DNA of 64,000 nt from assembly GCA_040954595.2 (NCBI GenBank), contig CM082578.2, forward strand, positions 16,166,998-16,230,997, given 5' to 3'. The notes beneath the pieces were generated by a model. The model did not search any database. It was given only the letters and a program-made list of their open reading frames with translations, and was not told where the DNA came from. Of the stretch, positions 1 through 62,289 are shown piece after piece. The stretch is from Balanoglossus misakiensis (lineage: Eukaryota; Animalia; Hemichordata). Position 1 is the first letter of the stretch, and each line of letters begins with the position of its first letter. The translations under genes and the position numbers were made by a program.

Positions 1-3000
1 ACTTATTTAAAGGTTAGTATATACGTCAAAAGTACCATTGGATACATATGGGAGATATCCAATTCCAATCACCGTGGAGACCGTGTGACTTCTCCAAAAT
101 TGAACTTGCAGACTTGAATTCAATGCTGCCAGTGTTACACCTTCAACCTTGTCTCTTCTTGTAGATTTCAGGGAAGATGAAAAGAAACCAGCTGCGTACT
201 TATTAGAAGGTGTCAAGACTATGTGCTCAGCACTCAGAAGTTGGACAATGAAAAAGGAGGTGGGTTCCATCTTGTAAAACAGATCCCTTATGACACTTAA
301 TTCATTTGACGGCTGTGTCCGACAAATCCATCCAAGCATTTGAAGCTAACAAAGTCAGTTACATCTGTACATTTGGTTGGGTTCATTCATGTATTCAGAG
401 CATTTCTCAAACATTACTTTCAAGTGGGTATTAAGGGCAGAGCGATTTTTACATCCAATTTCTATGCCATGTGAACTAAGCTGGGCAACTGACAGATATT
501 GTAATGTAATATGAACTTTAGTGATTTACTGGCAGCTGTAACAGTGCAGTAATAGTGTGATATAAGCTCTCATAGCACAATATGATCTAAGATGACCAAT
601 TAGCAGCTATTGTTATGCAGTGTGATCTTAGTGGATAACTGACAGCTGTAATAGTGCAGTTCTATGATATAAGTGGCAATTAACAGACCGGTCTTTATAG
701 CACAGTACAATCTAAGACGGTGATAATTATGTTCCACGCGTGTTCGTTATGACTGACAGCCCCTTTCAAATAATAATACCTTTTAGACACATTTGAAGTG
801 TATATAGCACACAGGAAAAGAGTCATTTCATAAAAATTATCCAAGGCATGTAATCTGACTAATGCCTGTATTGACTCTGAACTGATGTATTCTGTGTTTC
901 TGTCCGCGTTTCAACATGCACCAGACCTGAATACTTCCTTTACTTTTAATACTGCATGATTTACTAATCACTTCAAAACACTTGCTTTATGTGTTCTACT
1001 TTTTGCTTTGTCTTCATGTTGCCAATGATACAAATGGTAATGTTGATGTACGCTTACTTTACACACACTTAATATTTATATTATTAATTTCTACTCTACT
1101 GGAGAGAGAGACACACACACACATACAGGAGAGTAGTAACTCATTATTTTTTTCCTTTTTATTTTGAAATATTGAAACCAATGACCTGCCAGCTAAAAGA
1201 TGTGGCCATTGTAAGTCCTATTCTATGTTGTTGTGTTGTGCAGTGTTTGCATTTAGCAATGGCACAGGCATAGATTAGGATACCGTTATTGGTTGGGCGA
1301 GCCATGTAGGCCAAATTAGAAACCTTGAGATCCACTTGATCAAGAATGTTTCGCTATCATTGCATCCAGTGCTGATATATAATATTATATTCTCATCAAT
1401 AAGGATAACTGTAAATAGATAACAATGAGAATCGAGAAAGAATAGCAAAGAAGCATCAGCTCCAGCATGGCTCTCATTTACAAGTTAGCATTTCTGTGCT
1501 TTCCTTTCCTGTCAATACACCTGACCTCCCCTTCAGAAAAATAAGTCTACCCTACTGCTAGATGTTCTTGTATTTCACCATTTTAACTTATTTCTGTTGT
1601 GTTGGGTATAACTAATTATGTATATTTCTGTTTCTTTCCATTCACCTCACTTAATTATTTGTCACACCTGAGTTCAATTAAATATTTTACACGATGTATC
1701 AATTCTGATGAAATGGGAGCACAGTGTCCTTCACACTATTTTTTGTATCGTTTGGTTGCTATAGTTTTTCACCTTTCAAAAGCTCAGTAAAGATAAGACG
1801 AGGTGAGAATGACCATTGTAGAGTGTTCATTTTCAGTTTGAGTTATGGTTGTATATTTTTTCTTTCAGTACTTGAAACAGCATCAGCATGAAATCCCAGA
1901 GACAATCCAGTACAGTTCACTCATCAAAGAATTGAGTCGAGAACTTAAGCAGTTCGATGTAAGTGTACACATTACCAATAGCATTATATCATACATTGAT
2001 GGTGGTGCAAAAACAGCATTTTAATTGGTTGTGGCATAAAAATGTGATTTGGTGTTTTTTATTTCTCTAACCACAGCAAAAGACAACAGGGAAGAAAAAA
2101 GACAAAAAGAAAGGGAAAAAGAAGACAGCACCCTCACCCAAGCAGCAGATGGACTTGAATATCTTACACCAGCACACACAAGAGAAGCTACAGCAAGTGT
2201 CAGAGGAAATGTCACACCATCTGACACACAATCTGTCACCAGATCCATCATCGAATGAAATGAAGTTAGCACTAAATCAACAATTGTCTCACAGACTACC
2301 AGCACAAGTAGTTGCTCCAAGAGTACATGAGGTAAAGTCATACAACTGCCAGCACACATTGAGATATTCCAGCAAATGTAGATGCGACTTTTTACCAATT
2401 TCAGACCACATACATAGCTCTGCACCCAGTAAATATGGTTCTGTGATAAACTTTCATTCCTTACCAAATTAAGAGTGATTTGATCTTTTTGTCCACAGCA
2501 AGCTTACCATGCAATAGCTCAAGAACAGAAACCCGCAATCAAAGTTCGCATTCCAAAACCTGGTGCCTTAGTGGATGAGAAGAAAGAGGAGAAAGTCACA
2601 GACAATCAAATGTCAGCAGGATTAAAACTGGTTCTTTCCAATGGAAAGATTGTCAGGTTAGTTTGCTTTTCAATCCATTGATCACACACCGAATCAGTTC
2701 GAAGTTCTGTACGGTACTATAATTTCATCTGCCCTTTGCCTACAGTCGGAGTGGTTCTCCAAAACCCAAGAAAGAAAAAGGTGGTTTCCAACCATTAGTG
2801 AGTACAAGTAGTGAACTTTACGGTAGTGACAATGATGAGATCATAGTGGATGATGAACCGCCACAGAAAGCAAAGCCAGGACCTCTTAAGTTAAAATTAT
2901 CAAGTAAGTTCATCACTGTTTTTCAGACTTTTTAAACTACTGTAAACTGTTGTATTCAGTCAATGAATGAATTTATGTGCATGTACTGTGTAACGGGAAA

Positions 3001-4810: not shown

Positions 4811-7800
4811 TCCTGGCTGATATTGGGCATGGATGTTTTCTTGATTATAACCCGTATCAAAGAATGATTCTCAGATAACCGCACTGATATGAAAGATAAG
4901 TCTCTCTGTGGTCACTGAGATGAAAAACCATATTCCTGATAGCATCTAATATTAGAGGCATTTTTCGGATACGAGCTGATATTAGTCTGTTTCTCATATA
5001 TTTCCTGCTATTAGAGCCATGTTCTCTGATAATATTTGATATTAGAGACAAACTTTTCATAGTCAATTCTAGAGACTGCCATAGTGAAATATTCCCAGTG
5101 TACAGTACAACCTATTTATAATAATTGCTATCAGATTTTCTAATGTATATGACTATGCAAGGATTTCAGATGTTTTGGTTTATTTAAGAAAACACTAATA
5201 TAAATGCCTGTGAAATGATTCTTCTGTCTGTAGATCTTTGATTTTGCCCTAGTCTTCATCTGTCACTTTCTCTTTTCTTTTGAAAGTTCAATTTCCAGAA
5301 TAGGTTTTGATATGTAAATATCCTTGTTTTACACACATCTGGTTAGCAATACAGGTTCAAAAGAGAAGTTGCTTTTTCACACTCTTTGAAGGGTATGGGC
5401 ATTTCTTTGTAACTATTTTTGTATAAAAAAATATGCTACTGAACGGGTTGATACAGCACATATCTTTTGAAGCGTAGACACAATTTTCTTGAATTTGCAG
5501 ACACCAGCTGCTCTAATGGCTAAGTAGAAAATAATAATTTTCACAATCTTTTTTTCTTCCAAACATTACCTATCTTTTCTTCTTATTTTTTATAAAAAGT
5601 AAATCCCAAATCTGCTGCTTTTGCGGCTTATAAATAAACTTTTCTACGAGTCATTGAAAGGAAAATTTATGAATCACAGTTTAGGGTTCACAATATTTCT
5701 GAGTTATTAAACGGAAGTTTCACTTGTCATAATGCCGATTGAAATTTCAATTTCCCACACTTTTGATTTCTTTAATTGGTTTTACTTTAAAAATTTGTAT
5801 CTTTGGAAACTGAAGTATTCATGTTAACCTTGATACCAGTTTGTATTAGTTACCATAAAATACCGGTAGATAGTCATAATTAGTGAGAGTCGGTTACATC
5901 TTATAGTACCGAATGTTTTTTTTAAATCTTTGTTTGACTGGTTTGTGCAATAGTGTCCCCCTTTCCCTCACCTGCTAACAGCCATGGGATTTGCGTGGTC
6001 TGTCGCCAATCATATTTCGTACACAGCTATGTATTTTGTCTATAAAGCTAATGGTATTTAGAGAGGTCTTTTTGCTGGCAGTGCTATACCATTTGCTGTC
6101 CGTTTATTGAACAGAACAGTTCACTGCAATGTCTGTCTTTTGGATCAGATACTAGTAATTCAGAAGCTCAAGTTTAAAAGGCATCTTCCAGCACCACAAT
6201 GACCAATTGCATACAGGTTACTTTTCTAGTTAATATTGTCTTTAGCCAATTGATGCTCTCACCCTCTTGCATTGTCCACTTGCATGGGTCATTGGCCTGA
6301 CTACAGTCTCCATATTTTTGGAGAGCAATGACCTTGGCGGGCGAAGATGACCTTGTGAAATGATGAATGTATCATCTCAGGTTTACATCATCACTGTCAC
6401 ACGCCACCACTACCGGTACTTCAAAATCAAAACTTCAATATTCATAACATCTGCGGGAACAGAAAGCAATAATAATAGAACTACATGACCTCTGTGTATG
6501 ATCTCTACTGTACAGAAATCATTTGCTCTCATGATGCAGAGTATTCACTCACTGTGCTCACGAAAAAAAATGACTCGGAATACACTAATATATGACAATA
6601 ACTTTTATGGCACAGATTGTGTGCAGAGGCTATCAAATTTTAATCATACGACTGTTTGAGAACATATTCCTGCAGTCAACTAAAATTCACAGTAGACAAA
6701 GTTGTAAAATTATATCACAGAAAACTTCATTAACTGGTTTTATTGAAACTGCTCAATCAGTATCACTATTTATATGATGAATAAAAATTTAAGATGCCTG
6801 TCATACTCAAGAACAATCTTGGATAGTTTTTTTTTTTGAAGAGAGAAACAAATAGCTGATCTTGATTGTTCTTGATACATTTACTGAAAAATTGATTACA
6901 GGCGGTTGATGACATTTTCATCAAACATTTCCCCTCCCCTCCCCTCCAAGCTTACTCTGTATAAAACTGGTCTCCAGTGTGTCAAAGTGACAATTGGACA
7001 TTCTATCTGTCACTGCTGATGATACATGTGGTTCAGTATCATTCTGAAGACTGCATGGATAAAATATTCCAGCTGAATAATTCTTCTCATCTACCAATTC
7101 AAACCATTCAGAGCAAGTTTTTTTGTTTTAAAAAGGATCAGTTCTTCTTCAGAGAACTCTTGAATTTTTATTTTTACCTGTACAATTGTAAATGCTTGCT
7201 GCTGACACCATGCTTTTCCTTAATTTCCTTCAACAATTTTGATCAGTGTAATATTTTATTTATTATTGATTCTTTGAAGAAAAAGAGATGTAACCATTTG
7301 TGTTCCGATTTAGAATGTACATAAAACAATATGGTTTTGTTTCTTTTGGGGGATTAGTACTGAAGTTCATCAGGCAGATAGATTTTCATACACCATTTTC
7401 TTCTGTGAAAGCATGCGGTTCCGTAATTGGAACTGGCCCACATTAAAAAATTATTGTGTAAATACTGCATTTCTTCCAGTTTTTGGTTTTTATGACGTAA
7501 CAGCGCCCTCACTGAGTCATAGCCAGTATGTTAATCTGGTTGCCAGGCCCGTTCTCATGAGCGAAACCCAAAATAAATTAGCGGGTATTAATTGAAGATT
7601 TTAGCGATAACTCTATACTGTTTAGAATAGCCTACGTTTGACTTGTGAATGCATGTCACGTTAAACTATTTGCCTATTATTTACTAATTTGCCTGGCTGG
7701 TTTTGCAGCTATTGTGAATAGTCGATGTTTGGATATTTACCTCTGGTATTAAACAGTGCACAAAATTCTAAGTCGAACCGGGACGTTAGGCGAGACACAA

Positions 7801-10800
7801 TTACAAACTCTTATAACAGTTCATATCGATCTGGCGCAGAGTCGTAAAGCCCTGATGTCGGCAACATCAAAGAGTCGCAGGCGTTCTCTCCGTCTGTTTA
7901 TATTCCCACAAATCTGTCATTTCGATATTGCGGCCACATTAATCATAACCAGTGCGGTTAAAAAAAAGAGGACATTGGCTTATGAACGGCGATTGTTTCT
8001 TTCCGACGCTACCTGTCTTGTTTTCTCTCGTTTCATACAACGATTACATAGAACACCGTGTGTTCACAGTGAAATCGAGATCATGCTACTGTACCCTATT
8101 TCAATTTCTCCCCGGTATATGAGAGAAACGGGACTCTGACAGAAACGGACTTTGAATACTATGTCAAAGTCACGGTGGTTAATAATCGTCTCTATGGATT
8201 CAATTAATTAAAGTGAATACCATTAGATCAATCTTGCGTCCTACACCGCACACGAACAGGTGTTTATAGTAGCTATTAGCATGTGATTCACCGTCGAAAG
8301 CGTGCAATTTGAAATTCTGGATATGGTAACTTTGAACTTCACCGCTATATATGGTGCGAACCATATCATTCTGTTTGATTTGGGCGGCCTGTTGTTACAA
8401 CGAATTTACATAGATTAATTTTCGTAACATTCTGTTAGATACTCAATGACTAAATTCATGAGTCAGAGTTGCCGTAAAAGAAAAGTAGTGCAGTCAAACC
8501 TCACAAGTTTTATTAATGGAAACATCAAAGAGGATGACCCTTTGGAAATCGAGTTACGCCCGTAATTACCGTCTCGTTTCCCACTGCAGGAAAGCAACAG
8601 TTATACAAAGCCTTCAAACAATCCGTCATCAATGTGTATAGCCCAGGTGCACGCCATAAATAAAGTACAATCGGCAGTAGAACGGAAACCGGCTCACAAA
8701 GCTCTGGTTTTAAGCGGGCGTATAAAGCGCGGTACAAACGACATGTATCATAATAACAAAATGGAAGTGAAATTATCAACACGGCCTTGCGGTTGTAATT
8801 TTTATTGCAATGATATTTATCACCGATTCGCTGTAATAAGGCCCCTTTGCACTAATATGCTTTTCATTGTAGCTATTAGAGTTGTGACCATATTGCTGCA
8901 GATTGGTTATCACATAGGCTCAAATTTTTCACCTTATGAAGTGTTAAGCACACCCTTTGTTCCAGATGCAATTGTGTAAAAGAATTTGTCAGTGAATTTC
9001 CCACCCGGCAGTGATAATAATCGTAAAGTTTTGTTGTTAAACGCATAATAGATTGTGTTATGTTTAGATTATACAATAAGGGTGTCATCCCATAAAGGTA
9101 ACTATCGTTCAGACATATGGCATTTGCAAAGATTCCGGGAGTTTTACGAAGATTCCATAATGCCGACGAAGAACTCTCGTGAATGATGGAAAATTGCCGT
9201 TTTGATCACGTGACCTAGTCTAAATTGAGTTCTGTAAATAAACAAAACAAAGCAAAACAAAATGATGGGATGATAGAAGAATAATGGGGAAAGTGTACCA
9301 TTCTATTTTTTTTTTCATGGTGGAAACTCGGCTGTCGCAAACAGCAAGTGCATGTACCTGTTGAAAAACCATCATCAGATAATCGATGTAGGCCTACCTC
9401 AAAAGTTTTGATTTGTGGTAAAATCAGACCCCGTGGTTTTTGACGTTTATCAAAAAAAGTATTGCAGCGAAAAGAAAACAACGTATTGCTGAAATCGTTT
9501 ATCCGGGAATGGATTGTGGAATGGGTACAAAAAAATCAAGAATCTCTTCATCAGGGCCATATGGCCACATGTATTTTAGGCTGGTCAAATGTGACTGATT
9601 AAGACCATTAGCTTGTGAGAATAAGGGTTTATCAAATATGTACCTGTTGGCGGCTTCTTTGGTAACACAGCTGACGATGCCGACCCAACTTTTCTACTTC
9701 AGAAATAAACTACTTCGCCCCTTTTTAATTTTCCCGGTGACAGTACTGTGTAAATTTAATTTTCTAGTGAAGAGTGTCAATACTATTTTATTTATAAGTG
9801 TATTTGATTTTTTCAAAGGCTATACCGTCTTCCTCTTCATAAGGAAAGCAAACATTTCACTTGAAATACACACGTTACGAGGATAATGAATTCGATCATA
9901 GAAGTCAGATCTTTCCCCACAGTGCACTGTGTATAATATAATTCAATTGAAGTGAGCGCACGTGTTGTTAAGCCCGACAAGTACACAATCGTTTCTGTAT
10001 ATTCAGTTGATGGATTTGAAAATAAACGCATATAATTCGGATATATGCTCTTGCATTTTCCATTCATAAATTTATTTTACCACGAAGTGATTTCAAATAC
10101 TTTGGCGATATATATATCGAATTCATTATTGAACTGGTAATCCGTGGCATTGGGGTGCGCCGCATATACTACGGTGACCACAGTTGCATTGTTGAGTTTT
10201 TCTCACTTGTGATGAGTTGTTTAGTAGTATTATCGTAAACCGATTGTTGACCTCAATGCAAGATGGTGAGGTCATCCTTTTAGATGTGATCTGCGCAAAG
10301 TGCTCTGCCTGGATTCGTTTGAATGGTATGTAAAGAGCAGCTGTTGTGTCGGTTTTCCATTTGAAGATGAACACCGGGAAAATCCGCAGCATTTGGGTTC
10401 TGGATTTTTGAATTATCTTTTACCCGCCATCTGTGAGTTAGAAGGGTCCCTCGGGGCATCGCGGAAAAGTCACATGAAATCGCAATGAGTTCACCGTCAA
10501 AATTCTTTATGCGGAAATTGCAATTATCATCCTCATCTTATTACTCTTAACCGCCGCGCTCCGTCACGGTTGTTCGCGGAGAACGTTTGAGAGCCACGCA
10601 ATATAATTTTTCAACCAATCATTAAAAAAATCGTGCCTCGGGGAGAAAAGAATGTCATCTTTGCAGCCCACTTAACCGGTTGCCGACAAAGTTGAACGGC
10701 GCCTTTTTGGCACCTGTCCGACCGACTGAAAGTCGCGCGCTCATCGCCGCTTTTCAGATTAGTAGACTGCACAGAGACCGACTTGATGTACAAAGGCTTG

Positions 10801-11139
10801 AACATAAAGAAACACATTTCCAAGTCGCCGGAAATGTTGTATTTTCGTTTCTTAATTTGATACCCTTTTACAGAAACGTAAAAAAGAGATACGGATCGTT
10901 CGTTCATCGACTTTTATTGTGCATCAACATCCAAGCTGTTGTGAAGTGTACAAATATGCTTCTGTGTCCATTATTGCATATAAGTTTGCACACCGTTCAA
11001 AGGTCCTATCAGGTGATGGTAACACAATAACATAGCATTCACAAAATATTGCAAAGTGCACTTTGTTTCCACCGTTGGAGATTCGTAGCCTCATAATAGT
11101 ACTACAGTGATGGGTGACATACCACTTTGCTCACGCGGC

Positions 11140-11675
11140 ATTGATTGGACGAGGACAAAAATTTCTTTTGATGTGATGCGCCCCACAGCTAAAGGTATCG
11201 CAATGAGATCAAACTGTCGGCATGGTTTGTTGTTTTTTATGGCTCCACCCACCGTATGGTCAGAACCAGGCAGTTGAGTCAGACCTTTTTGAAGCGTTTT
11301 TTTCAGTCGATTCTTCCTGTAATCCCGCGATCTTTGATTGGTGCTTGTTTTAACCAGCGCCTACAAAGCGGAAATAACTAGGAATCGATTTTTATGTATG
11401 AAATATACCGATCAGCTGACAGACTGCATCTTGTATACCGCATACAGACCACAAAAGTTAAAATTCATGTACATATTTATTTAAACGTCTGCCTGGCTTT
11501 GTGCGACCCGCCATCCGCATCCGAATGTATGTACATCGATGACGTTAGCTTTCTGAAATGTAGATGATCAATCATAGGGGAGGGGGTTTAAAAGATAGAA
11601 TCGACAAGGGCGGTGATAGCCTGGCAGTCGACGTCTATATATATAGTGAGTAACCCCCCGGCTCCGCCAGTGACA
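11140..11675 (+). promoter_or_regulatory. Putative promoter of the BH3-motif ORF
   Basis: TATATATATA at 11636-11645, about 30-40 nt before ATG 11676. Reverse CCAAT boxes at ~11144 and ~11337, AP-1 TGAGTCA at 11275-11281, CRE-like TGACGT at 11540. CpG-rich relative to the introns. Confidence 0.5.
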
Positions 11676-11927
11676 ATGGAATTTGGTTATTGTAGTGACG
11701 ATGATGCTGCGGTTCTGGCTGCAAGGATCGGTTCCCGACTGCGCATGATGGGCGACTTGGTAGAAGTCCGCTACGGAACCAACTCATTGATTTACACCTT
11801 GTACTACTGCAAGTTTTACATTGTATACTACCTGGGCGGATTGCTGAGTGAAAGTCGGTGTAACGTGCAAGTCAACCACTGCAGCCACACAGCCAAGTCA
11901 GAAGACAGACGGCGTAGGCAAGGTTGA
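11676..11927 (+). CDS. Candidate BH3-only pro-apoptotic protein (83 aa, intronless CDS)
   Basis: ATG in good context (acaATGg). The protein MEFGYCSDDDAAVLAARIGSRLRMMGDLVEVRYG... contains I-G-x-x-L-x-x-M-G-D-x-V, fitting the BH3 consensus. A hydrophobic/aromatic stretch LIYTLYYCKFYIVYYLGGLL and a basic tail RRRRQG follow. No BH1 NWGR motif is visible. Confidence 0.65.
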   Translation: MEFGYCSDDDAAVLAARIGSRLRMMGDLVEVRYGTNSLIYTLYYCKFYIVYYLGGLLSESRCNVQVNHCSHTAKSEDRRRRQG

Positions 11928-13539
11928 ACATTTCTCCGTTTGACATTCCTTTTTATATCAACTGACAATTATTTTGACGGTTTAACCGAAGTATTTGTAT
12001 GTGGGTGTACCTGGTCCTTGGGCTGGGAAGCCGAACACGTGGATTTATCAACAAGAACCCACGCACCACCATGCTAATGGCCAACAATTAGCACGGTAAG
12101 TTATACCCTAGTATTTACACGCACGTGTCTCGATACAGTAATTGAAACGACCACACATTGTCAACAGTCCATTAGGAAATTTCTATTGACCAGCAGATCA
12201 CCTGAAAACTAGTTAACGTATACGTGATACGGAAGGAAACATGATAAAATGTAACAATCTATTAGCTTATAACCGGCATGGCACTTTACTTTGCCAAAGC
12301 AAAGAGTAGTATAACGAAAATTTTAGTGTATCCAAGTTCGCATGAATCGCCCACCGACAAATATAGGTCACTGATTTCTGATGGTACAAGAGTAGCAGTT
12401 TTATTTTAAAGATGGCCATGTTTTTTAATAAGCAAATTTCCTCCCCGGTAAGTCTTAAAGCACCTCTCTTGCAAACTTACAAATCAAGGTTACTATACAC
12501 AAAGACTTGTCTCTTTGTTTTAAAAGCATTTTTTATTACATTTGCAAAGTACAGGTCTACTGTATTAGTAAGTAATATTCTACAATAATATACTTTTCAC
12601 ACTGGAAAATATATAACTTGTCCTAAAGGACCATGTCAAGCAAAAATTATTATAATGCTTTTAGCTTCAAATTTCTTGTGCCTTCTGTATAAATAAGTTT
12701 CAAGACAGATATGTACCGTATTTTCTGCCAGTTTTACATCTGACAATTTTGCTTTGTAAGCTGTAAACATTGCAAGATGATATTTAATTAATAGGTGATG
12801 TTTTTCTTGATGAAGTCGGCACCCAGAGAATATTTTTCAAACAGATTTGAATATTAATTTTGTAAATATTGTTGATATTGAAATTTATTATTTATTTCCC
12901 CGAAATGAAAACGTTACTGTTTTCATCTTCTTTGGAATAATCACAGTTTTGCGATTCTACTTGTTTCCATCATGATTAAATTTTGAATGTTTCCCATAAA
13001 ATCATCAAGTTGATATCATCATGAACTAATTCTTTCTATATAAAATGTGAATATGATTTTATATCCTTAATTAATTGCTTGTCAAATTCGTTATATTTAA
13101 AGTCACAGAACACTTTACATTGTCCATGACTGTCCTTAAAAATGCTGATTTTCCATTTCTATATCTCCTTAAAAAATAGTAGTTTCTCTCAAATCTTTAA
13201 GTGCATAGTTTCCCCATATAATTTGTGCTATATTCTGACATTCATTCATTTCATACAAAAAGTATAATATCTCTCTGTAAAATGCTGGAATATTATTTTT
13301 CGTTTTGTTCATTGAATGTAAATATCATAGGACATGATCGCCAACTATAAACTATTCTAATCTTTTTATAATATTCTGAGGCATTTCTGTTAGACAGGAA
13401 AATCTGGATAATGCCAGAGATTTTAATATGCTGATCTTTCCAAATACTGATAGGTGTCTACATTTTCACTTGTCCTTCTCAATAAGTGGACAATGTAACA
13501 TAATTATTTGCAGGTTTCATGTTAACAATAACATGATGA

Positions 13540-13554
13540 AATAAAATTTTTATT
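13540..13554. terminator. Bidirectional polyadenylation signal between convergent genes
   Basis: AATAAAATTTTTATT contains AATAAA on + (13540-13545) and AATAAA on - (13549-13554). It lies between the BH3 ORF (+) and the MYND gene (-). Confidence 0.45.
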
Positions 13555-13993
13555 AGCAAGGCAACTTTCAGTGGTAAAATTAAAGAGATGTGATAGTACT
13601 GCAGAGTTGATAAATTGAACAAAGCTAATGAACTAATAAAAATAGCTGTAAAAAGCAAGCATGAGCTACTTTGAATAACAATCCTGATTTTGTTAACACT
13701 AGGATAACTATTACCTTAATGAAATGGTACACTACAAAACACTTCAACTTAAAATGTCACTCTACATATCTATAAAACTGTATACAACTTTCAGCACTAA
13801 GTACTTGGTTATTGAGTTTTAACAGCATATGTTATCAATATCTTCTAAAAACATAATGTGTTTATAACACGTGGTGGATATACAAAACAAATGAAAAAAA
13901 CAAACTTCAGACATGACAGGACTACATGAAATGCCATTCTGTTATGAGTTGTAAAACCTTTACAGGAAGACAATTTTCTCGAGAATGAAGACT

Positions 13994-16900
13994 TTAGAAT
14001 GGCTCTTCCACTTTCTTCCACTCTTTATGTTCCTTCTTGTGACGATCAACCCAGTCTTTCACTGCAACATACAAAAGATAATATATTAATTTATAAATAT
14101 TCAATTTATATAAAGAGCCGTCTAAATATAAAAGCCTCCCTTCCTATTTTAACTGTTTGTATTTCTTTCGCCTGTAGGTTCCAAACCTATGGTTGGAATA
14201 TAATCGCAATGTTAGGACCTGCACACAGTGTAAAATGAGGGAAAACTAACCCCCCTTCACAGACTCAGGATGTAACTAAAGACTTTCATCTAAACGTGAA
14301 CAGACTATTAATCATGACGCTGCACTGAGTGGGGAGCAAAATCATACCACCATATTTTGATCTGGCTGTTAACAACAGTATTAGAGAAGACATGTGGCCT
14401 TTGTGTGATGCCATGAAAACTATTACTTGGCCAAAAAGGCAAACAAAACTCTGAACTATGAGGTCAGAATTCTGTGTGTATTCGTAACATTTGAAAAGTA
14501 CTGGTTTTCAGAGAAGATGCTCATGTCAGCTACGAACATTCAGCTGTGAAACTCCTACGTCTGAATATAATCAGTGTATCTCTTGTTACAAACATGTATC
14601 AATGCTGAAAAGTTGCAATAAAGACACCACTAGAATGATTGAAACTTCAATATTGCATCTGACAAGTGAAGTCATTGTCTCCATATTAACAATATTTGAA
14701 GCTCATAACAGTAGCAACCATTGTACCAAAGAGCTCAAGCAATAGATGGGAACGTTACTCTAAAATTCTGTCACTGAACAGCATGTTACTGCTAAGATGG
14801 GTAGTGTGAGAATTGAACGATGTCAACTCCCCAAAATGTAAACAAGAAATTGACTGACCTTGACATGACTTTTCACAGTAGTATCGTGGCTGGAGGACAT
14901 TGAGTTCTCTACATCTGTCAGTAAACATTAAAATGTTAACTTTTCATTGTGCATCAACTTATATTTTATAGTTGTTTTGTTGCCACTGTGATCACTTAAC
15001 ATCTTACATTGCAGCTTTAAAAAAGTGAATGATACCAAGAGAAATGACACTAGCTACAATTTCCATAATCCCAGTACGCTAAAATATGCAAAATAGTAAT
15101 CAATTTTCCTCCTTTATGAGTTCAATTTACGTACCTCTGACATTTCTTGAATGCTTTTGGTTCTGGTTCTAGTTTTCCACATCCGAAACATTCCTTGGGT
15201 TTTCCATAATTCTTGTCGACATCTCCCTCTTCGATAGCTTTTGGTTTCAATTCTTCTTCTCTTTTCTTCTTTGCTGCTTCCCTTCGTCTCAGTCTCTCCA
15301 TCAGTCCAATATCTTTCTCAGATTCATCCTCCATTCCCGCACCGCATACTCTTAATCCAGACTGCAGAAACTTTGTTACACTTTCATCACTCAGACCTCC
15401 TGTGAACAAAAATAAGAGTACTTAGGCATGTAATCACCACCAGAAATTCTATGTATATTCACAAGCATGACAAGTAAAATAATATCTGTAGAAAATGTCA
15501 TAAATTGGCTGCAGTAACTCTGGATAGCAACAATACAGCAATTTCATTAAATATACAAATTAGTTTATTTGTCCAAATGTTACCTGTTTCCTGGCATTCT
15601 TGTTGAATTTCGTGAATCTGCTTCATCACCCTGTCCATAACACCACTCTTTTCTTCATCTTTAGTGAACACGCACACTATACACGGCTTTGAAGGATCGC
15701 TTGATGTCTTTCCCTTTATCTCTTGATCACACCACTTGGCAAAGTCATCAGGGTCATCAATATGTACAGGTGTGTAGGTCCCATCTCCCTTCAAATGTCC
15801 CCCAGACTGTTCCAACTTTTGCCTCCAGTTTTTCTTTGGCCTATTAAATTTTTCGAAGTACTTCTTCCGTTCCATAATCGTATTTCTGATGTCCGCATCT
15901 TCTATGGGCTTATTTTCTGCGAAGTTGTATCTGATCACCTGCTTGAAGGAGCTGCCATCAATCGGATCCACCATTTCTATGATATCCCCATCTCTCATCA
16001 GAGGAGCATCAGGATCATCATCTGCCGACTTGATCATACTGCTTGGTTTCTTTTCATCCATTGCTTCAGCACTCAGAAGAATTTTGTCTTCCTTTGTTAC
16101 TCGTGTGCCAGGTGGTGCTGTGAACAGTTTCACTTTCCTTTCAAGGAGTTTTCCGGTCTGCATGGATCGGACAAGCATTTTAAAATTACCAAGGTATTCA
16201 CGATCAAAGCTCTTGGCTCGCTTTGGAACCAACGCCTTCTCTGTTTTCCCTTCTTCTCTTCTTTCTTCCTTGCCTCCTGCTGGACTCTCCAGTTTCCGGA
16301 CCACTTCCTTCGTCTTAGACAACTCGGATGGTTGGGACTGTTTTGTCTCAATCTCGTCGTCGAAAGTGAGGTTGATAAATCGACCAGTACCTGCATCGCA
16401 TTCTGGATCACCAGGTCTGACCACCTTCACTGCAGAAGCCCCTAACCTTTTGAAGGTTTCCATAACTGTTGATTCCATTTTCGGCGAGAACAGCTCGTCA
16501 AGCCTCTTGTTGAATTCCGCAGCGATCATTGCTTTCTTTTGTTCCACAAACTCGTCGGGTAAATCATCCGCATCATCTGATAGATTCAAAGAGATCAATT
16601 CAACAACAAAAAACTGAAAAATTTCATCCAAGCAAAATGAGTTGAGCTATAGTATTGCTACTATTGTATAAATAGCATACATAGATGAATATTAATAAAG
16701 CATTGGAGAAAATCCAAGATGGAATTTAATTAATCAAGGTATGTCAGTGAAATTGAGGGGTACTTGGTCCCCCCCCCACCCCCCACAAAGTAATAACCTG
16801 GTAATATATTGGATCATATATATGTTTTTACTCAAATCACCTTTCTTGGCAGTTTCCAAGCACACTTTCATGGTCATGCGTGCAGTTTTGCCATCGGGTG

Positions 16901-19741
16901 ACATCTGGAATGGTGCGGGTGCACCTGGATGCTTTGCTTTGTAATTCTCAAGGAATTCTGCAACTGTTAGACAATCTTCATCCTTATCATCTGCAGCAGT
17001 GCCAGTTGTAGTTGTCGTGGTGGGTTTGGAGATCGGGTCATCATTTGACTTTGAGTCATGCTTCTGTTCAGTTAGTGAAGAGACTGGCGTTTTGCTCTCG
17101 CTGTCTTGGCTTGTTGTTTTCTGTTTAAGTGATCGCTTTGCTTTCAGCTTTTTCTTGTGGACAACTTTCTTCTCATTTGACGTTGTCTCCTTCTCGGTTG
17201 TTTCATCCTTCAGCATGCTCTTCTTCTCTTCAGGGGATGAATCTCTCCTGCCGTTCACCTCTTGTGGAGGGTCATCTCTCGTTTTTGGCTCCACATCTTC
17301 CTTCTCAGCTTCCTCTTTTGTCGAGGAGGCGCTCGCAGAAGATACTTCATCTGTAGTGTTGTCAGTGTCGTCTTCATCATCCTCTTCATCGAAGATTCTG
17401 CCGACTTTCTTGGGTATCGCCCCCAGTTCTGTGATGTCGGCTCCTGGGTTCATAAACGGACGTCCGTGCATCATGCCCTCCATGTAGTGAGCCAGAAGTC
17501 CGCTATCGATGAAGGTCGATTGAAAGTCTTGTGGCATTTCCATGACCTTGGGACGGCTGTCTGCCTTCGGCATTCCAATACAGACAGAGATACCCTTGTC
17601 AGGGTCGGAGGACATACTCTTCTCTCTTGCTGCTTGTTGGTGAACCACGCTCAACTTATTTTTCTTCCTCTTTGAATTTTTTCTGGAATCTCTGCCACCT
17701 TGATTGAAGGTCTCCCTCCACCATGGCTGTGTTGCCTTGCTGAGATCGATCAAGTTACCATCACCATTAGGATCCACAAACTGGCTCATTCTTCCTTGCG
17801 AGTCGATCCTCTCCTCGTAGATATGCCTGCGATACTCGTCCAGATCTCGAAAAGTCCTAGCCCCCTGTTCCCGCCTTTGGTTTTGTTCGTACAAAAAGGT
17901 CAAAATAAGCCTTTCCTCATCTTTGTCCTCCACAACTCTATAGGCCTTGTCCGGATTTGCTAACTGCATCAAATCAGCAACTGTGCTACTTTTGTCTTTT
18001 TTGGTCCACTTGGGTTTCAGGTCTTCTTCTGACGGTGCCACCCAGTACTCCTCATCACCACGAAGTTCTTCGGCCTCCAACCATGCACGCATACAATTAC
18101 AAATTGAACCTCCAAAACACAGGTACAAAGGAAGCAGCAAATAAACCTATATGTGGGGTGCAAACATACAGAAATATCATTGCTTTAGCAATATATACGG
18201 GTACGCTTAATGTGAAAACAGGTGAAATTTCAAATCTATTCTAATTACAATTTTCTTGATAAACTGAAAACATATTTCTGAGGTGCACTATGGTCCAAAA
18301 GGAGTTCATAGTTCAACAAATGTCTTTTACCTACCTTAATATAAGATGATTTTTCTTGTGGATCTCCAAAAAATCTTCTAAAAATGTCTCTAGTTTCTTT
18401 GTGGTAAAATGGATCTTTAGCTGTGAACATCAATGAAAAAATAGCAGTAAGGACACCCATTTGATCAGAACTGATACATTCTAGTGTGTATGTTCAAATA
18501 CTAAGGTGATACGTGCAGGTGTTATCTAGTCTTTGACGGGGATGGATAGCCATACATACATGTACATACATAAATGCCACTTTGTATGGCCAATTTGATC
18601 AAATGATTTTAGCATTTCCAATAAGGTTCACAGATGGTGGCTAAGTTGGATACAAAAGTCAGATAATCTTTGACAAACTTACCATAAGAGTTTGACTCTA
18701 ATCCACCTAAACTTCTTTTGTGTTGTGCTAAAGCTGCTGTATCGACCACTAAGTTTTTAGCAGAATTCGCCTTTCCTGTGGGTAAAGCAACATATATTAT
18801 TATCATCAGTACCATGACTACATATAAAAAGGACAATTTCTTATACATGAATAAGTTCAATGCCTTGAACTACTTTGAAACTCGTGCCTTGAACTACTTT
18901 GTACAATGTAATGTGTTTTTATAGGAATAGTTTGCATCTTCCTTGTCCCCATTGGATTAGGTAAGTTGAAAATACCGTTCTACAATTCTAAATTGGGCAG
19001 TTTCCTTTCCCAAGTGGACGACTACCGGGGTATGCTAAGTATGAATGTGTGGTGTATATATTACCTCTCACAAAGTCTTGTTTAATAAAATCAAAAGCAT
19101 CTTCTATAAACACCTCATACTGTTCATTCTGAAAGTAAAACAGTTATGCATTAAAATACAATGCAATGTAATGAGAGATCCTGGGAAATGCCAAAATAGT
19201 TCCAGGGACACTGCGTTTCTGAGCACTTTATTTTTTTATTTTTTTTTTAAATGACAAAATCTTACCTTCACTGGAAATTCTTTAAGAACTCCACAATTTA
19301 TTGAAAATGCTCTGAAACACTTCACAAATCTTTCCCAAAATTCGCGACCCTAGAAAAAAATGACACAAATTTGATGTTAAAATGGCATAGATTTTTGGAG
19401 ATTACATGTATAATTAAACGGCATTTCAGAGAGGTTTTAGATGTGACGGTTTATTAGCGATAAGGTATATGCCTGAGCAGAGACTTGGGACTGTGGGCGC
19501 ACAATAGGTGACAATGGTTATCTGCACACACAAGACCAGATCCCTGAACACTGGTTCACCCTGGGGGATCAGAAATTGAGCAAGAATGAAAGTTCTGTAA
19601 CAATAGACTGACTATATTTACCTGATCCTCCCACATACGTTTGAAAGCATTTACATGTTTTTTAAAAAACTGATAATCCTGTCCATCAATTTCAGATGAA
19701 AACAGTCTGATTTCATGCTGGTTCAACTTTATCTTTCTCAT
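13994..19741 (-). CDS. Uncharacterised large protein with C-terminal MYND-type zinc finger, multi-exon
   Basis: Phase-consistent exons from ATG 19741 (MRKIKLNQHEIRLF...) through ~19266-19349, ~19065-19128, ~18682-18775, ~18335-18420, ~16841-18147, 15584-16576, 15135-15399, 14859-14914 and 13994-14061. The last three exons splice to CFGCGKLEPEPKAFKKCQRCRELNVLQPRYYCEKSCQVKDWVDRHKKEH, the MYND pattern CxxC...CxxC...YCxxxCQxxDW..HK. Confidence 0.85.
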
Positions 19742-38792: not shown

Positions 38793-41700
38793 TCAACAAC
38801 TGGAACACTGCCATGTTGATTTGTCTGTGGGTATGTTTACTGGATCGTCTAAAAAAACAGGAAAGAAAAAATAGTCACCGGGATGTACACTTTGCATTTT
38901 AATGAAGTCTGTGATTCTTTGAGTGCTATCTTTGACCAATGGAAGAAATCAGGGGTTCTGCTTTTGAGGGACGTGTTCGTTTATGGGCGTTTATGTGAGA
39001 CTTTAAGACTCACCTGCTGGAATATAGGCGTCATTGTGATAGGATTCATGGGTGGCAGCTTCATCCCAAACCTCTTGGAGAACACTGTACCAAGTCTTTC
39101 CATCTTCGCTGACGATATAGGATGTCATGTCGTTTGCTATCCCATAATATTCAGAAGAGTCAGAATTCCAGCCAATGACATTTGACACCAGTGGGCTGAT
39201 GGCTGGGTTTGAAAATAAACAGGAAAATTACAGATTGCTTATTTGATTGGCTAGTTGTTTACAAGTATTGATGGATGGATGGATCAGTCAGTTGGTGAAG
39301 AGGTTATAATCACACACTTACCATGTATGCTGCCATTTGTCTGTACATAAGAACATGCCCCATAAATTCTGCAAGAAACAATTTAGTTTAGTTTTAAATG
39401 CCAGGGCCTCAGCCCATCACATAGAAAAAACTTGTTTACAGTGATAAACAATACAATAGTCAAAAAGGACAAATTCGGTTAAAACAGTGAGTGCAAAATT
39501 GACAGACTTGCGAATACAACACCCTGCAATTTCACATGCATGTATTCAAACAAATCAAACTGACATCTTACCCTGGTATGATGTTGTCACACACAATGAA
39601 CCATGGTTCTTCTGGGCCGCTACCACTGGACATATAGAGTCTGGGTTGATAGTCTGTGAGGTTGGATGAGTAAAGGTTAGTGAACTGATGGAAATTCACA
39701 CTCAACCGGTTTATAGTTTGATTGTGTAATTAAATACCAAATACATTTCAATATTGGTATAAAAAATATAAATGTTTCTGTCAACGAAACAAACATCTAT
39801 CTCGGAAATAACACTTTACAACTTACCAATAACCTTGTCACCTTGTGGGAGAGTATTTTGTGGTATGGCTTTCACTGAATTGGTGTCTGCGAGTGTAAAA
39901 AATATAATCAGATTCATAGCTATTTGCCGCACTTTGTACAATCTAGGATAAAATAGTAGTCCATGATGAAATCAATCAAAATATGGTCTGGTGATATGTC
40001 CAGTTTGAATCCTTTTCTTGGATCCTTATGAGAGTCTATATAACTCATATATCTAGAATTATAATTCAACATGTAGAGTAACTTGCTAACGTTTTGATCT
40101 TTTGAAAACCAATTACTTCTAAGAACCATCCTCACCTGGTTTTTCACAAATGTAATGTTTGCTGGCATCACACAATTCGGTTGTCCAGTTGCCCTGGTCG
40201 GTGAGGGCGCACTTCAATTCTCCACCACTCTCTGCACGTGGTTCGCCCAGTGCCCAGTTGTTGTATAGAAGGTACGAGTTGTCCGGCCAGCGATACACTT
40301 GATTCCCTGCGCTGTCTGACCACTCAGAGGCTCCGATCCAAAGTTCCTCGTTGATGCTTTCCGAAACTGAACCCACGAGCTCGTTGTCATCTGAGCTGTC
40401 GATGATGACGAGGTGCCCACCATCAGCTGAACAAACGTCGACGGCTTCTCGCCATGTGCTTGTAGTGCTTGATGTGGTGTAACAACTACTTCCGTGCCAA
40501 GACTGGCCAGTTTTGCATGCTAGTTCGTTTAAAAGGAAGAAAATAAAACTCTAAACAATATTGCTGCGGTTTATAAAAGTGGAAGTCGATGATGTCATCT
40601 TCAATCAATATTTTTCATAATTCCGACATTACGAGGTACAGCAGTTGTTGCATATCCTTTCTTTTTTCCTTTTTAATTTGAAATTTCAATTGATTTTATG
40701 CGACTACGTCAGTTTCCTTCGATTGGCAATTGGCATTTTACTTTTGCTTGAAAGCCACGTGTATGAATGTAGTCTCCAACTTTCCCAACGACGACAAACT
40801 AATGTTATCGCATGATGAAAGGTGTCAATTTATAGTTTGTAAACATGAAGTACAACTTTTTAGTCATCTTACCTGGTATACTGTATGTAAATGTCACCAC
40901 TTTCATATCGTTTAGCTGGGATAGAAAAGTTGTAGATGTTCGCGTAGCCTTGTACAACGCCTCAAATACTCCCACGTATGCGTGCGTTCCTGAACTCTGG
41001 GCTTCGTTTGGATCAATCGCAAAATTGACGATGATGGACAACACTTCGGAAAACTTGACGGTTTCGACCTGGGCAGAAAAAGATGAAATCACATACCGAT
41101 GTAATTTGTTAACATGTTGATCTTTTGAAAAACAGGTACATAATGATGAAATGATCTTGTATATAAAATATGTTAATATATCCATCTATCTGAACCCCCT
41201 ACTCCCAGAAACGCTTACCCTGATTCTGGTAATATCACCAGATACATCTGCAAATGGCACTGACTGAATGGTGTCACTATCCCACGTGAAACCTGCATAA
41301 ATGACTGACGGTGTCGACATGATATTGATGATGACGTCATGGGAGTAGGCTCCTGATGCAAGTTCGTGTTGTAAGGTGAGATGTATGCTTACACTGTCGC
41401 TAAATTAAAATGTGGAAAAAAACATTTTCTCATAAAAAATATACAGATTTACCGCATCTTCAAGTACTGAAGGATCTTCATACTTCATGGTAATAATAGT
41501 TTTCAGGATAAAGAATTTAGCAGAACTGATTTTAAAGTGCATTACTCTTTTTAAAAGTCGGTTATCCTTGCTCTTTCGGAATTTATAAATTGCGTATTTC
41601 ATGAATAAGGCATATTAAAGTTAATTGCTTCATACCCACGATTATATGTGATGTCAGAATCATTTAGCAAGCTAGCATTGAATGTTACACTTGGTGCTCG

Positions 41701-59366: not shown

Positions 59367-62289
59367 TGATATACAGATACATAATACTAGTAAGATGCAG
59401 TTAGGGTAACCATGGAGATGGTGTCTGTGTGTTTGTAAAGCCAACGTTATTCATTTTATTTACCGGAATAGAAGAGGAGAGGTTGCCAAGTGTACACATC
59501 CTCAGCAAATGTTGAACAAGCGTGACACAATGATCAAAGAAATCATTTTTCGCTGAAAAAATATTATGAGCGACATTCAAGTTATGATATGAGCAAAGAG
59601 CAATCAAGCCATGGCCCAGAAATTGATATCCCCAGTATCGAACCTGCCAGGTAATGTTGACAATACGAGGAAATAACAAGACCTGACTTATCGAATAGCA
59701 GACCAATAGTTCATAACGCTAGAAAAGAAACCAACAGAAATACAAATCTCGCACAATCATATTATTTGGTAGGGAATATGAGTTAAAACAGATCAATATG
59801 TACATGGGGTCATCGTCTCCCTGTAACTTTACAAAGCCAGTGTTTTTCCCCCAGATACCCTCGGGACAGCTCTCGGCGATTGAAGTTCTTATAATGCATT
59901 TGCTGTAAGATTTATCACTGATTAATTTTACAACATAACTCACACTTAGGCGCGCATTATTCGGAGAGTACACTTCTTGAGAACTAATATCTGAAATGAG
60001 AACAGCGATTTCAATGAATCGTGGGCCAAATAGAAGTAATATAATTCGATAAAAGCGCACCAATTAAGACGGGGTGTCTGCTTCCCGCACGATGCAATTG
60101 TGGGAGAATTTAATGGAATGTGACAAAATGATTAAGATGACTCGTTGATTTCCTGACTCATAACTGCCGCATTATTGCTTGCTCTCTGCTGGTGTGAGAC
60201 GTGTTCGGAATTTTCATTTTTTTTTGCGTGTGACGCTATTAAGTCCCTTCTGAACATACCTTTTCAATTCGACAGTGCAAATTCTAATTTTCATGTCCGT
60301 TAAAAACTGTGTTGAAATATCTTAGTCGAGAAGGATTTAACCTAAAGACAGATAAGTAATTCGTATCACGCCACCATCAGAATTGAAATATTGTGTTCGT
60401 TGAAACGAGAACATTTTTATAGACGTTTAGCGTCGTGAAATCTTCCATAAAAAGCTACTTCAGTGAAACCTTTTTATCCAACTCTAATATTCCCTTTGGG
60501 AGAAAGCTCAGAAAGTGCTGAGACGGCCCGGGGACATTCCTGTGAAGAATTTTCATGATTAGTATACCGTCTATACGCTGCACTGCATTTTCATAAATAA
60601 AAAAGCACCTTTAAATTTAGAGATTTAAAGTTGAAATCATCGAAGGAAACAACTTTATATGCGCTTGTGGCGTGTGTTGGTTACACCAGGACAAAGACCA
60701 AAGACAAACATAAACCGTAGACATGATAGATGAGATTGAATAAACTGTGCGGTCTTTTATTGGTATGGGATTGACTGGATCGGGAAACGTTGACATTTTG
60801 CTCTACCGTCACTGTCGCCTTTGGGCAAATCGTTCATTTGCTATTCTTCGATAGTAAGAATATCAGACTCGAAGTGTGATTGTGGACTGTTTTAGTAAAT
60901 TTGGAGGTCCATCCTTTCCTGGCGTCACAAACAACCTCGAATTTGTCAAATTTAGCATAAAATACATTTCACGACCGGGTGTCACTTTTTGACAGCAAGC
61001 AATAACAAAGCTTTGGTTAAAGCTATGAAGCCTGATGATTGTCAAAGTATTTTCAACCGAGTTCTGTCGCATCGCAAACGCGTCACAATCGCAAAAAGCG
61101 AAAGGAAAAATCCCGACAGACGATTTTGTGACCTGCCTTTGAAGAAACTGGTGAACCAAACAGACACCATTAACAATGATTTCGAAATATAGAATTGCCG
61201 TGACTTGCCTGACGTTGCATGTCTCACAAACAAACTCCAGGTTATAATTCTGATCACCATCATTTTGTCTTCATTTGAAGTTTTCTTCCACATTCTTCTG
61301 CGCAATGCGACTTTTACGAGCTTCCGTTTGATTTGATCTCGGACTGGGACTGAACCATTAAGCGGCCGGGGTGGGTTGTATGCAGCTGAAAGTCTACACA
61401 TTGAAGCTGTGATACGGTTTAGCTGAACACTAAATGTGTATGTACAATGTTTGTGGTTAAATAATCTGATTATGCATTATGCTTTATTAAAATTATTGTG
61501 GGAGAATCCCATTTAGTAAACACTGAACTTGCTGCTGCAGTAGTGATGGATATATTTGGCGCCCTCAGCGATGTACGCCAAAGTTTGCCCCTCCCCCCTT
61601 TCCTATCGCTTCCTATTGAAATCACAAATTAGGATTAGGAGCTCAGACACTTTGATGTATTGCGGGAGAGGCGTTCATACTGTGGTATTGCTATATCTAA
61701 ACTTTGGAGGACACGGAATGCAAATTTAGTGATCAATTTACATGTTTAGTTTTGGCGACCAGAGTAAATCTTACAAGTACCAACTAAATTGGATTAAATT
61801 TTGATCATTTGATTTAACGCGTATTGTGCAAACTGCTATCTCATTTAAACATTCAATTTTTTTCGCCCTGTCTCAGCTTCTGTAGTGTACATGGATAGGT
61901 CTACTTGGAAAAGCTCAGCAAGGGCACAGACTTTGAATTTGTGGCAACTTTTGACTTACTGTTGAACATTTTAGCAAAATTAGAAAACAGGTAAAACTTC
62001 AAGAATTTGTTTCCATGTTTACAGGTGATCATTTGAGTTTCAATGGAAAAGTCGGGCGACATTTGACCTTACCCGTTTCAATTATTTCAACATCAAGGCA
62101 GTGTTGGGGTAATAAAATGACACAGACACAAGTATTTCATTTTAATCTAGTTCATTGAACATTTTAATTTCAGAGGTTTTAAATCCATAAACAAAAGAGG
62201 ATACATGTATACAGTATTATCTGTACACTTACAATATGAAAAAGGAGCAAGAACATTACTTCCGTGAACCCAAATTTCAAAATTCAAAT

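What the first reader, a model, noticed from the sequence alone, without database searches (positions are those of the whole stretch)
11676..11927. Candidate new invertebrate BH3-only apoptosis gene in an apparently empty intergenic region
Seen: an 83-aa ORF behind a TATA-like box whose residues 18-29 (11727-11762), IGSRLRMMGDLV, fill every position of the BH3 pattern (h1-small-x-x-Leu-x-x-h3-Gly-Asp-x-h4). A ~20-aa hydrophobic segment and a basic tail follow. Known: BH3-only proteins share little besides this motif (recalled: PUMA IGAQLRRMADDL, BIM IAQELRRIGDEF, EGL-1 IGSKLAAMCDDF), so homology annotation often misses them, and few are described in invertebrates. Inference: a membrane-targeted Bcl-2 antagonist, possibly lineage-specific.
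Basis: partly seen in the sequence, partly recalled or inferred. Interest (0 to 1): 0.85.

Follow-up and report, generated by a model that had tools for sequence, protein, structure and literature searches.

The report
Candidate small BH3-only cell-death gene
An 83-codon reading frame behind promoter-like signals, in what is likely an acorn worm, carries a short cell-death motif (BH3) and likely encodes a small protein that would trigger cell suicide by blocking Bcl-2 survival proteins, though no relative was found and its expression and activity are untested.

Summary
The ORF (11676-11927, +, 83 aa) and its BH3 pattern are real. A profile built from 21 Bcl-2-family helices fetched here ranks it first in the window (18.9 bits, next 11.0; 2 such hits in 20 Mb simulated). 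Its ATG has a strong context and follows the window's only TATA+initiator pair; motif and promoter together arise by chance about 4e-5 to 1.6e-4 times per Mb. Codon usage weakly favours this frame. A predicted complex with a stand-in Bcl-xL-like protein gave weak support (0.57, best control 0.02). Against: no homologue in any search, Leu after the Asp and Val at h4 are atypical, and the hydrophobic segment is not a clear transmembrane helix. Conservation and expression could not be tested. Best reading (0.6): an intronless-CDS, NOXA/EGL-1-sized BH3-only gene, likely switched on by transcription; main rival (0.27): a chance ORF. Candidate new member of a known kind: an acorn-worm BH3-only candidate is already listed in print (PMC8998228).

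The parts
11676..11927 (+). 83-aa open reading frame, candidate BH3-only gene; no splice donor scoring above 1 inside it
11727..11774 (+). BH3 helix core and extension, residues 18-33: I18, L22, M25, G26, D27, V29, E30, Y33
   Evidence: helix 8-33 in the single-sequence model
11787..11846 (+). Tyr-rich, moderately hydrophobic helix, residues 38-57; likely peripheral membrane-binding segment (inferred)
11847..11924 (+). polar, low-confidence tail, residues 58-83, ending in four Arg
11636..11645 (+). TATA-like run; TATAWAWR match at 11638 lies 31 nt before the initiator A
11666..11671 (+). initiator-like hexamer, predicted start of transcription at A11669 (7-nt leader); the same AG is also a weak splice acceptor (score 2.1)
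11608..11613 (+). GC box about 60 nt upstream of the predicted start; a CRE half-site lies at 11540 and an AP-1 site at 11275
   Evidence: consensus matches only
11646..11651 (+). weak donor-like GTGAGT (score 2.0; 2.4 such sites per kb), upstream of the predicted start site
11928..13545 (+). possible 3' UTR: two strong donor-like sites (12096, 12448), six ATTTA, ATTAAA at 12975, first AATAAA at 13540; may overlap the 3' UTR of the convergent neighbour
   Evidence: extent is inferred
7500..12500 (.). CpG-undepleted block (observed/expected 0.79-1.48) between two convergent, CpG-depleted gene bodies

Best explanation
The 83-codon frame is likely a real gene with an unsplit coding sequence for a small BH3-only protein, which would bind the groove of this animal's pro-survival Bcl-2 proteins and so likely free Bax/Bak to start apoptosis. 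Shown: the frame, the motif spacing, the TATA-initiator-ATG layout. Inferred: transcription from A11669; residues 8-33 fold as an amphipathic helix whose I18, L22, M25 and V29 enter the four pockets while D27 pairs with the BH1 Arg; helix 38-57 docks the protein on an organelle membrane peripherally, as for Noxa or Puma; with no long regulatory N-terminus, control is likely at the level of transcription.
For: Motif spacing equals that of hydra Bak1 L74/L78/F81/D83/I85/Y89 (PMC7489894 passages). Profile from 21 distinct Bcl-2-family helices fetched: top hit of the window, 18.9 bits against 11.0 for the next, 2 equal hits in 20 Mb of simulated DNA; held-out genuine helices score 8.6-31.4, the ORF 15.5-19.9 under the same profiles, above the held-out row in 3 of 21. 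Seven of 16 residues identical to the BH3 of two Bak-like loci, in register (Bak identity of L007). Only TATA+initiator pair in 64 kb, both strands; 4.4e-4 of stop-free 20-codon windows lie in such a frame by chance, joint rate 4e-5 to 1.6e-4 per Mb. True frame ranks first of six in two codon models (P 0.054-0.066 synonymous, 0.02 full). ESM Atlas, residues 5-58, named clusters: a BAK fragment cluster (0.76) and a 26-aa Bim/Noxa/Puma peptide cluster (0.75; PF08945 27%, PF15150 18%, PF15826 15%); under 0.9, a lead only. Complex with a stand-in invertebrate Bcl-xL-like protein: weak support, score 0.57, best of 3 controls 0.02, runs agree in at least 91% of contacts, partner pLDDT at least 65; the mark was reached by 51 of 78 solved and 2 of 108 mismatched pairs, but at 0.60 or under by only 5 of the 78 and by all 4 mismatches of 180; on eukaryotes by 39 of 65 solved pairs without a like complex and 2 of 126 unrelated pairs, peptides untested; BH3-in-groove complexes are solved, so the pass may show likeness only. 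Most human BH3-only proteins also lack a canonical transmembrane helix (PMC11346437 passages) and are 54-198 aa (PMC7022251 passage).
Against: No relative: 0 of 1 and 0 of 163 candidates at E<=10; one hit among 1.84 billion representatives, a three-copy repeat ORF matching residues 27-54 only and missing h1-h3; none in metagenome or viral contigs; no BH3 peptide in the PDB at E<=10, where a true Bak BH3 of equal length finds Bak peptides at E 0.034-1.4. Leu28 and Val29 occur in 0 of 21 helices at those positions. A TATA+initiator pair alone is expected about twice per window (23-25 per Mb per strand). Across 250,000 windows 0.7-2.5 chance cases of motif plus promoter are expected, and the features were chosen after seeing the locus. 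The codon test is weak: true frames rank first in only 8 of 22 control pieces. No p53 site with 3 or fewer mismatches and no FOXO site in the block. Two strong donors 168 and 520 nt after the stop could make the RNA a decay target (inference).
Confidence: 0.6

Rival explanations
1. A chance open frame in unmethylated, GC-richer regulatory DNA; nothing is translated, or the promoter drives a non-coding RNA whose first exon ends at the donor at 12096 or 12448.
For: No homologue in any search. TATA+initiator pairs are common enough alone. About 1-2 chance cases of motif plus promoter are expected over the whole scan. Atypical Leu28/Val29. Strong downstream donors: 2 within 520 nt against 3 in 18.9 kb of antisense DNA.
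Against: Three features of different kind coincide (protein profile, core promoter spacing, start context), at a joint rate near 1e-4 per Mb before counting Kozak context. The true frame ranks first of six in both codon models. Homology searches have little power for such motifs: true Bak BH3 29-mers also get 0 Pfam families.
Confidence: 0.27
2. The frame is the last coding exon of a longer BH3-only gene, entered through the AG at 11669-11670 in phase 1, with upstream exons in the 7.5-11.6 kb block (a Bim/Bmf-like layout).
For: A weak acceptor (score 2.1) with a C-rich tract sits 5 nt before the ATG; vertebrate BH3-only genes are multi-exon (PMC7022251 passage).
Against: Only one donor scoring 4.5 or more upstream on this strand between 5000 and 11670 (10266); no upstream + strand ORF has a Pfam match of note; the search for longer relatives found none; the TATA spacing already explains the CCAGT as an initiator.
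Confidence: 0.08
3. A relic of a multi-domain Bak/Bcl-2-type gene that kept only helix 2, now a pseudogene or a truncated product.
For: The E-x-R-Y extension matches helix 2 of multi-domain proteins (19 of 21 Glu, 17 of 21 Tyr); best similarity is to Bak-like BH3 (Atlas BAK-fragment cluster). An origin of BH3-only genes from Bak-like ancestors has been proposed (PMC7527217 passage).
Against: Profiles of two Bcl-2-family alignments find no BH4, BH1 or BH2 remains in any frame of the non-satellite window (best E 1.5-1.8), and tblastn over 10.5-13.5 kb gives only short pieces at E 0.03 or worse.
Confidence: 0.05

Closest known systems
Vertebrate NOXA (PMAIP1), HRK and PUMA (BBC3)
   Same: Short protein, one BH3 helix, a hydrophobic helix close behind it; Noxa also has a non-acidic residue after the Asp and a non-canonical membrane-binding C-terminus (table in PMC11346437). 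Atlas peptide cluster with PF08945/PF15150/PF15826 at 0.75.
   Different: No sequence homology (Pfam E<=10 empty for these families). 26 polar residues follow the hydrophobic helix. No p53 site found. Coding sequence appears unsplit.
C. elegans EGL-1 and hydra HyBH3-only-2; cnidarian BH3-only candidates
   Same: [quoted passage not shown] 5 legend); EGL-1 is up-regulated to bind CED-9 (PMC7527217 passage).
   Different: No detectable homology; those two have shown binding or killing, this one has neither.
Bim/Bad/Bmf-seeded candidates of echinoderms, Saccoglossus and lancelets (Suraweera et al. 2022, PMC8998228)
   Same: Invertebrate deuterostome BH3-only candidates, BH3 on a single exon, experimentally unconfirmed.
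   Different: The echinoderm ones are 118-373 aa and were found by BLAST from human seeds; this one is 83 aa and has no database hit. Whether it equals their Saccoglossus candidate could not be checked: the figure is not held and the supplement files are binary.
BH3 (helix 2) of invertebrate Bak (loci L007, L025; hydra Bak1)
   Same: Same register from h1 to the Tyr at h4+4; 7 of 16 identities.
   Different: No Bcl-2 fold, no BH1/BH2/BH4.
Drosophila Sayonara (PMC10107002)
   Same: A lineage-restricted BH3 motif missed by annotation; the paper notes in-silico BH3 prediction is notoriously difficult and needs experiment.
   Different: Sayonara is a larger coiled-coil protein of a conserved family, with genetic evidence.

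Membership tests
BH3-only proteins | BH3 motif: L-x3-[GAS]-D core with four hydrophobic residues at i, i+4, i+7, i+11 and Asp at i+9 | tested here: met
   I18, L22, M25, D27, V29; core definition from PMC10107002 Fig. 1 legend, spacing from PMC7489894. The usual, not required, acidic residue after the Asp is absent (Leu28; 0 of 21); human Noxa has Lys there.
BH3-only proteins | No other BH motif and no Bcl-2 fold | tested here: met
   No PF00452 hit; no BH1/BH2/BH4 remains in the region; fold search empty at E<=0.001 on a low-confidence model.
BH3-only proteins | Intrinsic disorder outside the BH3 helix, motif accessible | tested here: inconclusive
   Single-sequence AlphaFold2: helices 8-33 and 38-56, pLDDT under 50 at 1-7, 55-76, 78-83, mean 55.4; low confidence also follows from having no alignment. 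Tail 77% disorder-promoting residues.
BH3-only proteins | Binds the groove of pro-survival Bcl-2 proteins through the motif | tested here: inconclusive
   Prediction only, with a stand-in partner: weak support, 0.57 against best control 0.02; like complexes are solved.
BH3-only proteins | Motif-dependent killing (MOMP, caspase activation) | not testable with these tools
   Needs cell or mitochondrial assays.
BH3-only proteins | Expressed, and induced by death stimuli | not testable with these tools
   Only promoter-like consensus matches.
BH3-only proteins | C-terminal membrane-targeting sequence (common, not universal) | tested here: inconclusive
   Helix 38-57, best Kyte-Doolittle mean 1.08, below the roughly 1.6 recalled for transmembrane helices; compatible with peripheral binding as in Bim, Puma, Noxa.
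Multi-domain Bcl-2 family (Bak/Bax/Bcl-2) | Helical Bcl-2 fold with BH1 and BH2 | tested here: not met
   83 aa is too short
Orthologue of a named vertebrate BH3-only gene (Bim, Bad, Bmf, Puma, Noxa, Hrk, Bik, Bid) | Sequence homology beyond the motif | tested here: not met
   sensitivity for short motifs is low

The most novel reading that the evidence does not exclude
Acorn worms carry a second, orphan class of BH3-only gene: a tiny TATA-driven, transcriptionally switched killer that arose separately from the conserved Bim/Bad-like gene and from vertebrate Noxa/Hrk and nematode EGL-1. It would show repeated independent birth of the EGL-1/Noxa design and be a candidate trigger for the larval-tissue death seen at hemichordate metamorphosis.
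Probability: 0.3. Interest if true: 0.7.

Novelty: new member of a known kind. Interest (0 to 1): 0.47.

Why it matters
How BH3-only triggers arose is open: they share only a short motif, are missed by annotation, and the invertebrate deuterostome candidates in print came from BLAST with human seeds and are unconfirmed (PMC8998228). A real 83-aa orphan BH3-only gene in a hemichordate would mean the repertoire outside vertebrates is undercounted and that small transcription-controlled killers are not special to vertebrates and nematodes. It gives a cheap test: one 29-residue peptide against Bcl-2 proteins, and one in situ probe at metamorphosis, when larval ciliary bands and neurons die (PMC9169294 passages). 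The mechanism itself would be the textbook one.

Tried and rejected
Whole genome: none held, so no paralogue, repeat or synteny search. Sequencing runs: no RNA holder listed; no evidence either way, and no reads could be laid. P0002, the one hit, rejected: three tandem copies of a 39-aa unit, singleton cluster, match excludes h1-h3. Pfam DUF3556 (E 0.03, below cut-off) rejected as chance. Exact sequence not in the 15-billion collection. Whole-protein Atlas search: three unnamed clusters at 0.78-0.79, recognition 2126, below the 2300 mark. Foldseek on the low-confidence model: 0 at E<=0.001. Rfam 5000-14500: 0. No transposon-like repeats in 5-15 kb and no copy of the block elsewhere in the window. 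A first codon test (0.104 against -0.092+/-0.057) was set aside as confounded by GC; the controlled test is. A second BH3-like core on the minus strand at 8836 rejected: profile score -2.1, stop codon just upstream, no in-frame ATG, no codon signal. Motif enrichment in the block: AP-1 3 vs 0.6, E-box 4 vs 1.1, GC box 3 vs 0.8 (P 0.03-0.05 each, 7 motifs tested, uncorrected), CRE, FOXO, CCAAT, p53 half-sites not enriched; not relied on. No acorn-worm Bcl-2 protein could be identified: the search gave 10 hits among 26 candidates, all unnamed, so the complex used a stand-in. One search was meant as the BH3 control but covered the BH1 region; one search is the control. The taxon was not tested here.

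Full report
Observation. The frame 11676-11927 (+) gives 83 residues, with IGSRLRMMGDLV at 18-29. A looser core occurs 13 times against 6.8 expected, so only the full pattern stands out. The spacing I18, L22, M25, D27, V29, Y33 equals that of hydra Bak1 L74, L78, F81, D83, I85, Y89 in its crystal complex (PMC7489894, passages).

Setting. The window is intron-rich animal DNA. Pfam names some neighbours: Q_salvage and Lectin_C strongly; CytochromB561_N (TMEM209), RNA_polI_A34, RING and Ariadne weakly. They converge, so neither needs a promoter between them. CpG observed/expected is 0.79-1.48 from 7.5 to 12.5 kb and 0.16-0.65 in the bins on either side up to 16 kb; I read this as unmethylated DNA between methylated gene bodies, which is no proof of a gene. 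Earlier notes on this genome call it an acorn worm; I did not test that, and no genome is held.

An independent motif test. To avoid scoring the ORF with a pattern fitted to it, I fetched Bcl-2-family sequences by their BH1 signature (35 loci; 31 show the motif in an open frame, most reading as Bcl-2-family proteins) and by a protein search (10 hits of 26 candidates; five further cluster members), aligned 11 and 24 of them and cut 21 distinct 20-residue helix-2 segments. The profile ranks 11715-11774 first in the window, 18.9 bits against 11.0, with 2 equal scores in 20 Mb of simulated DNA. With similar rows left out, genuine helices score 8.6-31.4 and the ORF 15.5-19.9; it beats the held-out row in 3 of 21 cases, so it lies at the low end of the true range. 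Glu30 and Tyr33 match 19 and 17 of 21 rows; Leu28 and Val29 match 0 of 21. The profile is mostly of pro-survival helices, and I chose its limits after seeing the ORF. The Atlas, asked for named clusters with residues 5-58, listed a BAK-fragment cluster (0.76) and a Bim/Noxa/Puma peptide cluster (0.75) after two clusters without a common family (0.78); all are under 0.9 and leads only.

Is it a gene? A TATAWAWR match at 11638 lies 31 nt before the A (11669) of an initiator-like GCCAGT; it is the only such pair on either strand of the 64 kb. The ATG follows 7 nt later with A at -3 and G at +4; a GC box lies at 11608. Such pairs alone are not rare: 23-25 per Mb per strand, about two per window. 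But only 4.4e-4 of stop-free 20-codon windows fall in a frame opened by the first ATG after one, which puts motif plus promoter at 4e-5 per Mb, 1.6e-4 at an upper hit rate, or 0.7-2.5 cases in 250,000 windows. That is rare but not negligible for a scan of this size. Synonymous codon use, trained on 15 coding stretches of the window, ranks the true frame first of six (P 0.054 against 350 overlapping local windows, 0.066 against 2000 shuffles; full codon model 0.02), but the same test ranks true frames first in only 8 of 22 control pieces. The GTGAGT at 11646 scores 2.0 with a generic matrix, a level met 2.4 times per kb, though a real neighbouring donor of like form scores 3.8; it lies upstream of the predicted start. 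No donor above 1 lies in the ORF. Two strong donors at 12096 and 12448 follow the stop, against 3 such sites in 18.9 kb of antisense DNA; they are unexplained and could mark a 3' UTR intron or a non-coding first exon.

Relatives. None was found: 0 of 1 and 0 of 163 candidates; one repeat-derived hit among 1.84 billion representatives that misses h1-h3; 0 of 189 and 0 of 10 pattern matches confirmed in metagenome and viral contigs; no BH3 entry in the PDB or Pfam. These blanks are weak: genuine Bak BH3 29-mers also get 0 Pfam families and reach only Bak peptides, at E 0.034-1.4, beside unrelated chains. They do show that it is no close orthologue of a named BH3 protein, and no BH1, BH2 or BH4 remains lie nearby.

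Mechanism. The single-sequence model has helices 8-33 and 38-56 and a low-confidence rest (mean pLDDT 55.4). Residues 6-38 folded with residues 6-154 of P0006, an unnamed invertebrate Bcl-xL-like stand-in, gave weak support: median 0.57 (0.67, 0.56, 0.57), best of three controls 0.02, at least 91% contact agreement, partner pLDDT at least 65. The mark was reached by 51 of 78 solved and 2 of 108 mismatched pairs, but at 0.60 or under by only 5 of the 78 and by all 4 mismatches of 180; on eukaryotes by 39 of 65 solved pairs without a like complex and 2 of 126 unrelated pairs; peptides are untested, and BH3-in-groove complexes are solved, so the pass may show likeness only. No interface was given, so groove binding is inferred from the motif. 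Helix 38-57 has a best hydropathy mean of 1.08 with six Tyr and 26 polar residues behind it: not a clear tail anchor, but BH3-only proteins other than Bik and Hrk lack canonical transmembrane helices (PMC11346437, passages). With only 17 residues before h1 there is little room for the phospho- or tether control of Bad and Bim, so I infer control by transcription. No p53 site with 3 or fewer mismatches lies in the block.

Comparison and novelty. It works, if real, like Noxa, Hrk or EGL-1; membership rests on the motif and the absence of other BH motifs (met) and on binding, killing and expression (not shown), so it is filed as a candidate. Suraweera et al. (PMC8998228; abstract, passages, section 2.4 and figure legends read; supplement unreadable) list unconfirmed BH3-only candidates in echinoderms (118-373 aa) and, by the Fig. 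5 legend and discussion, in Saccoglossus and lancelets; I could not compare sequences. Searches for BH3-only with hemichordate (10 papers), Saccoglossus (7 of 8 listed), amphioxus plus sea urchin (4) and acorn worm/Ptychodera (15 of 17 listed, none holding 'BH3') showed, in their listings, no study of an acorn-worm BH3-only gene; the library lacks most subscription papers. Other papers seen as passages only: PMC10107002, PMC7022251, PMC7527217, bioRxiv 2022.05.07.491048, PMC9169294. Unchecked earlier notes report a Bim/Bad-like gene elsewhere in this genome and similar small candidates in Trichoplax, a mussel and an octopus; these lower the surprise and are not support.

Verdict. Observation confirmed; interpretation partly supported. 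About 0.6 for a stand-alone small BH3-only gene, 0.08 for the last exon of a longer one, 0.27 for a chance frame, 0.05 for a relic. New member of a known kind; interest 0.47.

Noticed in passing
window 42481-57853: An 87-bp satellite, 176.7 copies at 99% match. The unit is 29 codons and open in one frame, giving false ORFs of up to 2406 aa. Long stretches look exactly repeated, which could be real or an assembly effect.
   Followed up: partly
window 8525-8851 (-): 108-codon stop-to-stop frame starting with a looser BH3-like core (Leu at 8836); profile score -2.1, no in-frame ATG before it, no codon signal; judged chance.
   Followed up: yes
window 12096 and 12448 (+): Two strong splice-donor-like sites after the stop codon; the second coincides with the drop from 40% to 28% GC and the end of the CpG-rich block. 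A strong acceptor lies at 14177, antisense to the neighbour's last intron region.
   Followed up: partly
window 7500-12500: 5-kb CpG-undepleted block between convergent genes, with three AP-1 sites, four E-boxes and three GC boxes (each P 0.03-0.05, uncorrected); larger than a core promoter needs, possibly enhancers.
   Followed up: partly
window 13994-18146 (-): Neighbour gene with two very long exons (382 and 470 codons open) without a clear Pfam family and a C-terminal MYND-like Cys/His pattern split over three small exons; the MYND label is recalled.
   Followed up: partly
window 39000-42411 and 58300-60100 (-): Exons of a C-type-lectin-domain gene (PF00059, E 1e-15) with further unassigned exons that appear to lie on both sides of the satellite, which may then sit in an intron.
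   Followed up: no
window 63704-64000: 126-bp tandem repeat, 2.3 copies at 98%, cut by the window end.
   Followed up: no
L007:478-1236 (-), L025:194-877 (+): Bak-like genes from unnamed metagenome contigs in which the N-terminus, BH3, BH1 and most of BH2 lie in one open frame.
   Followed up: partly
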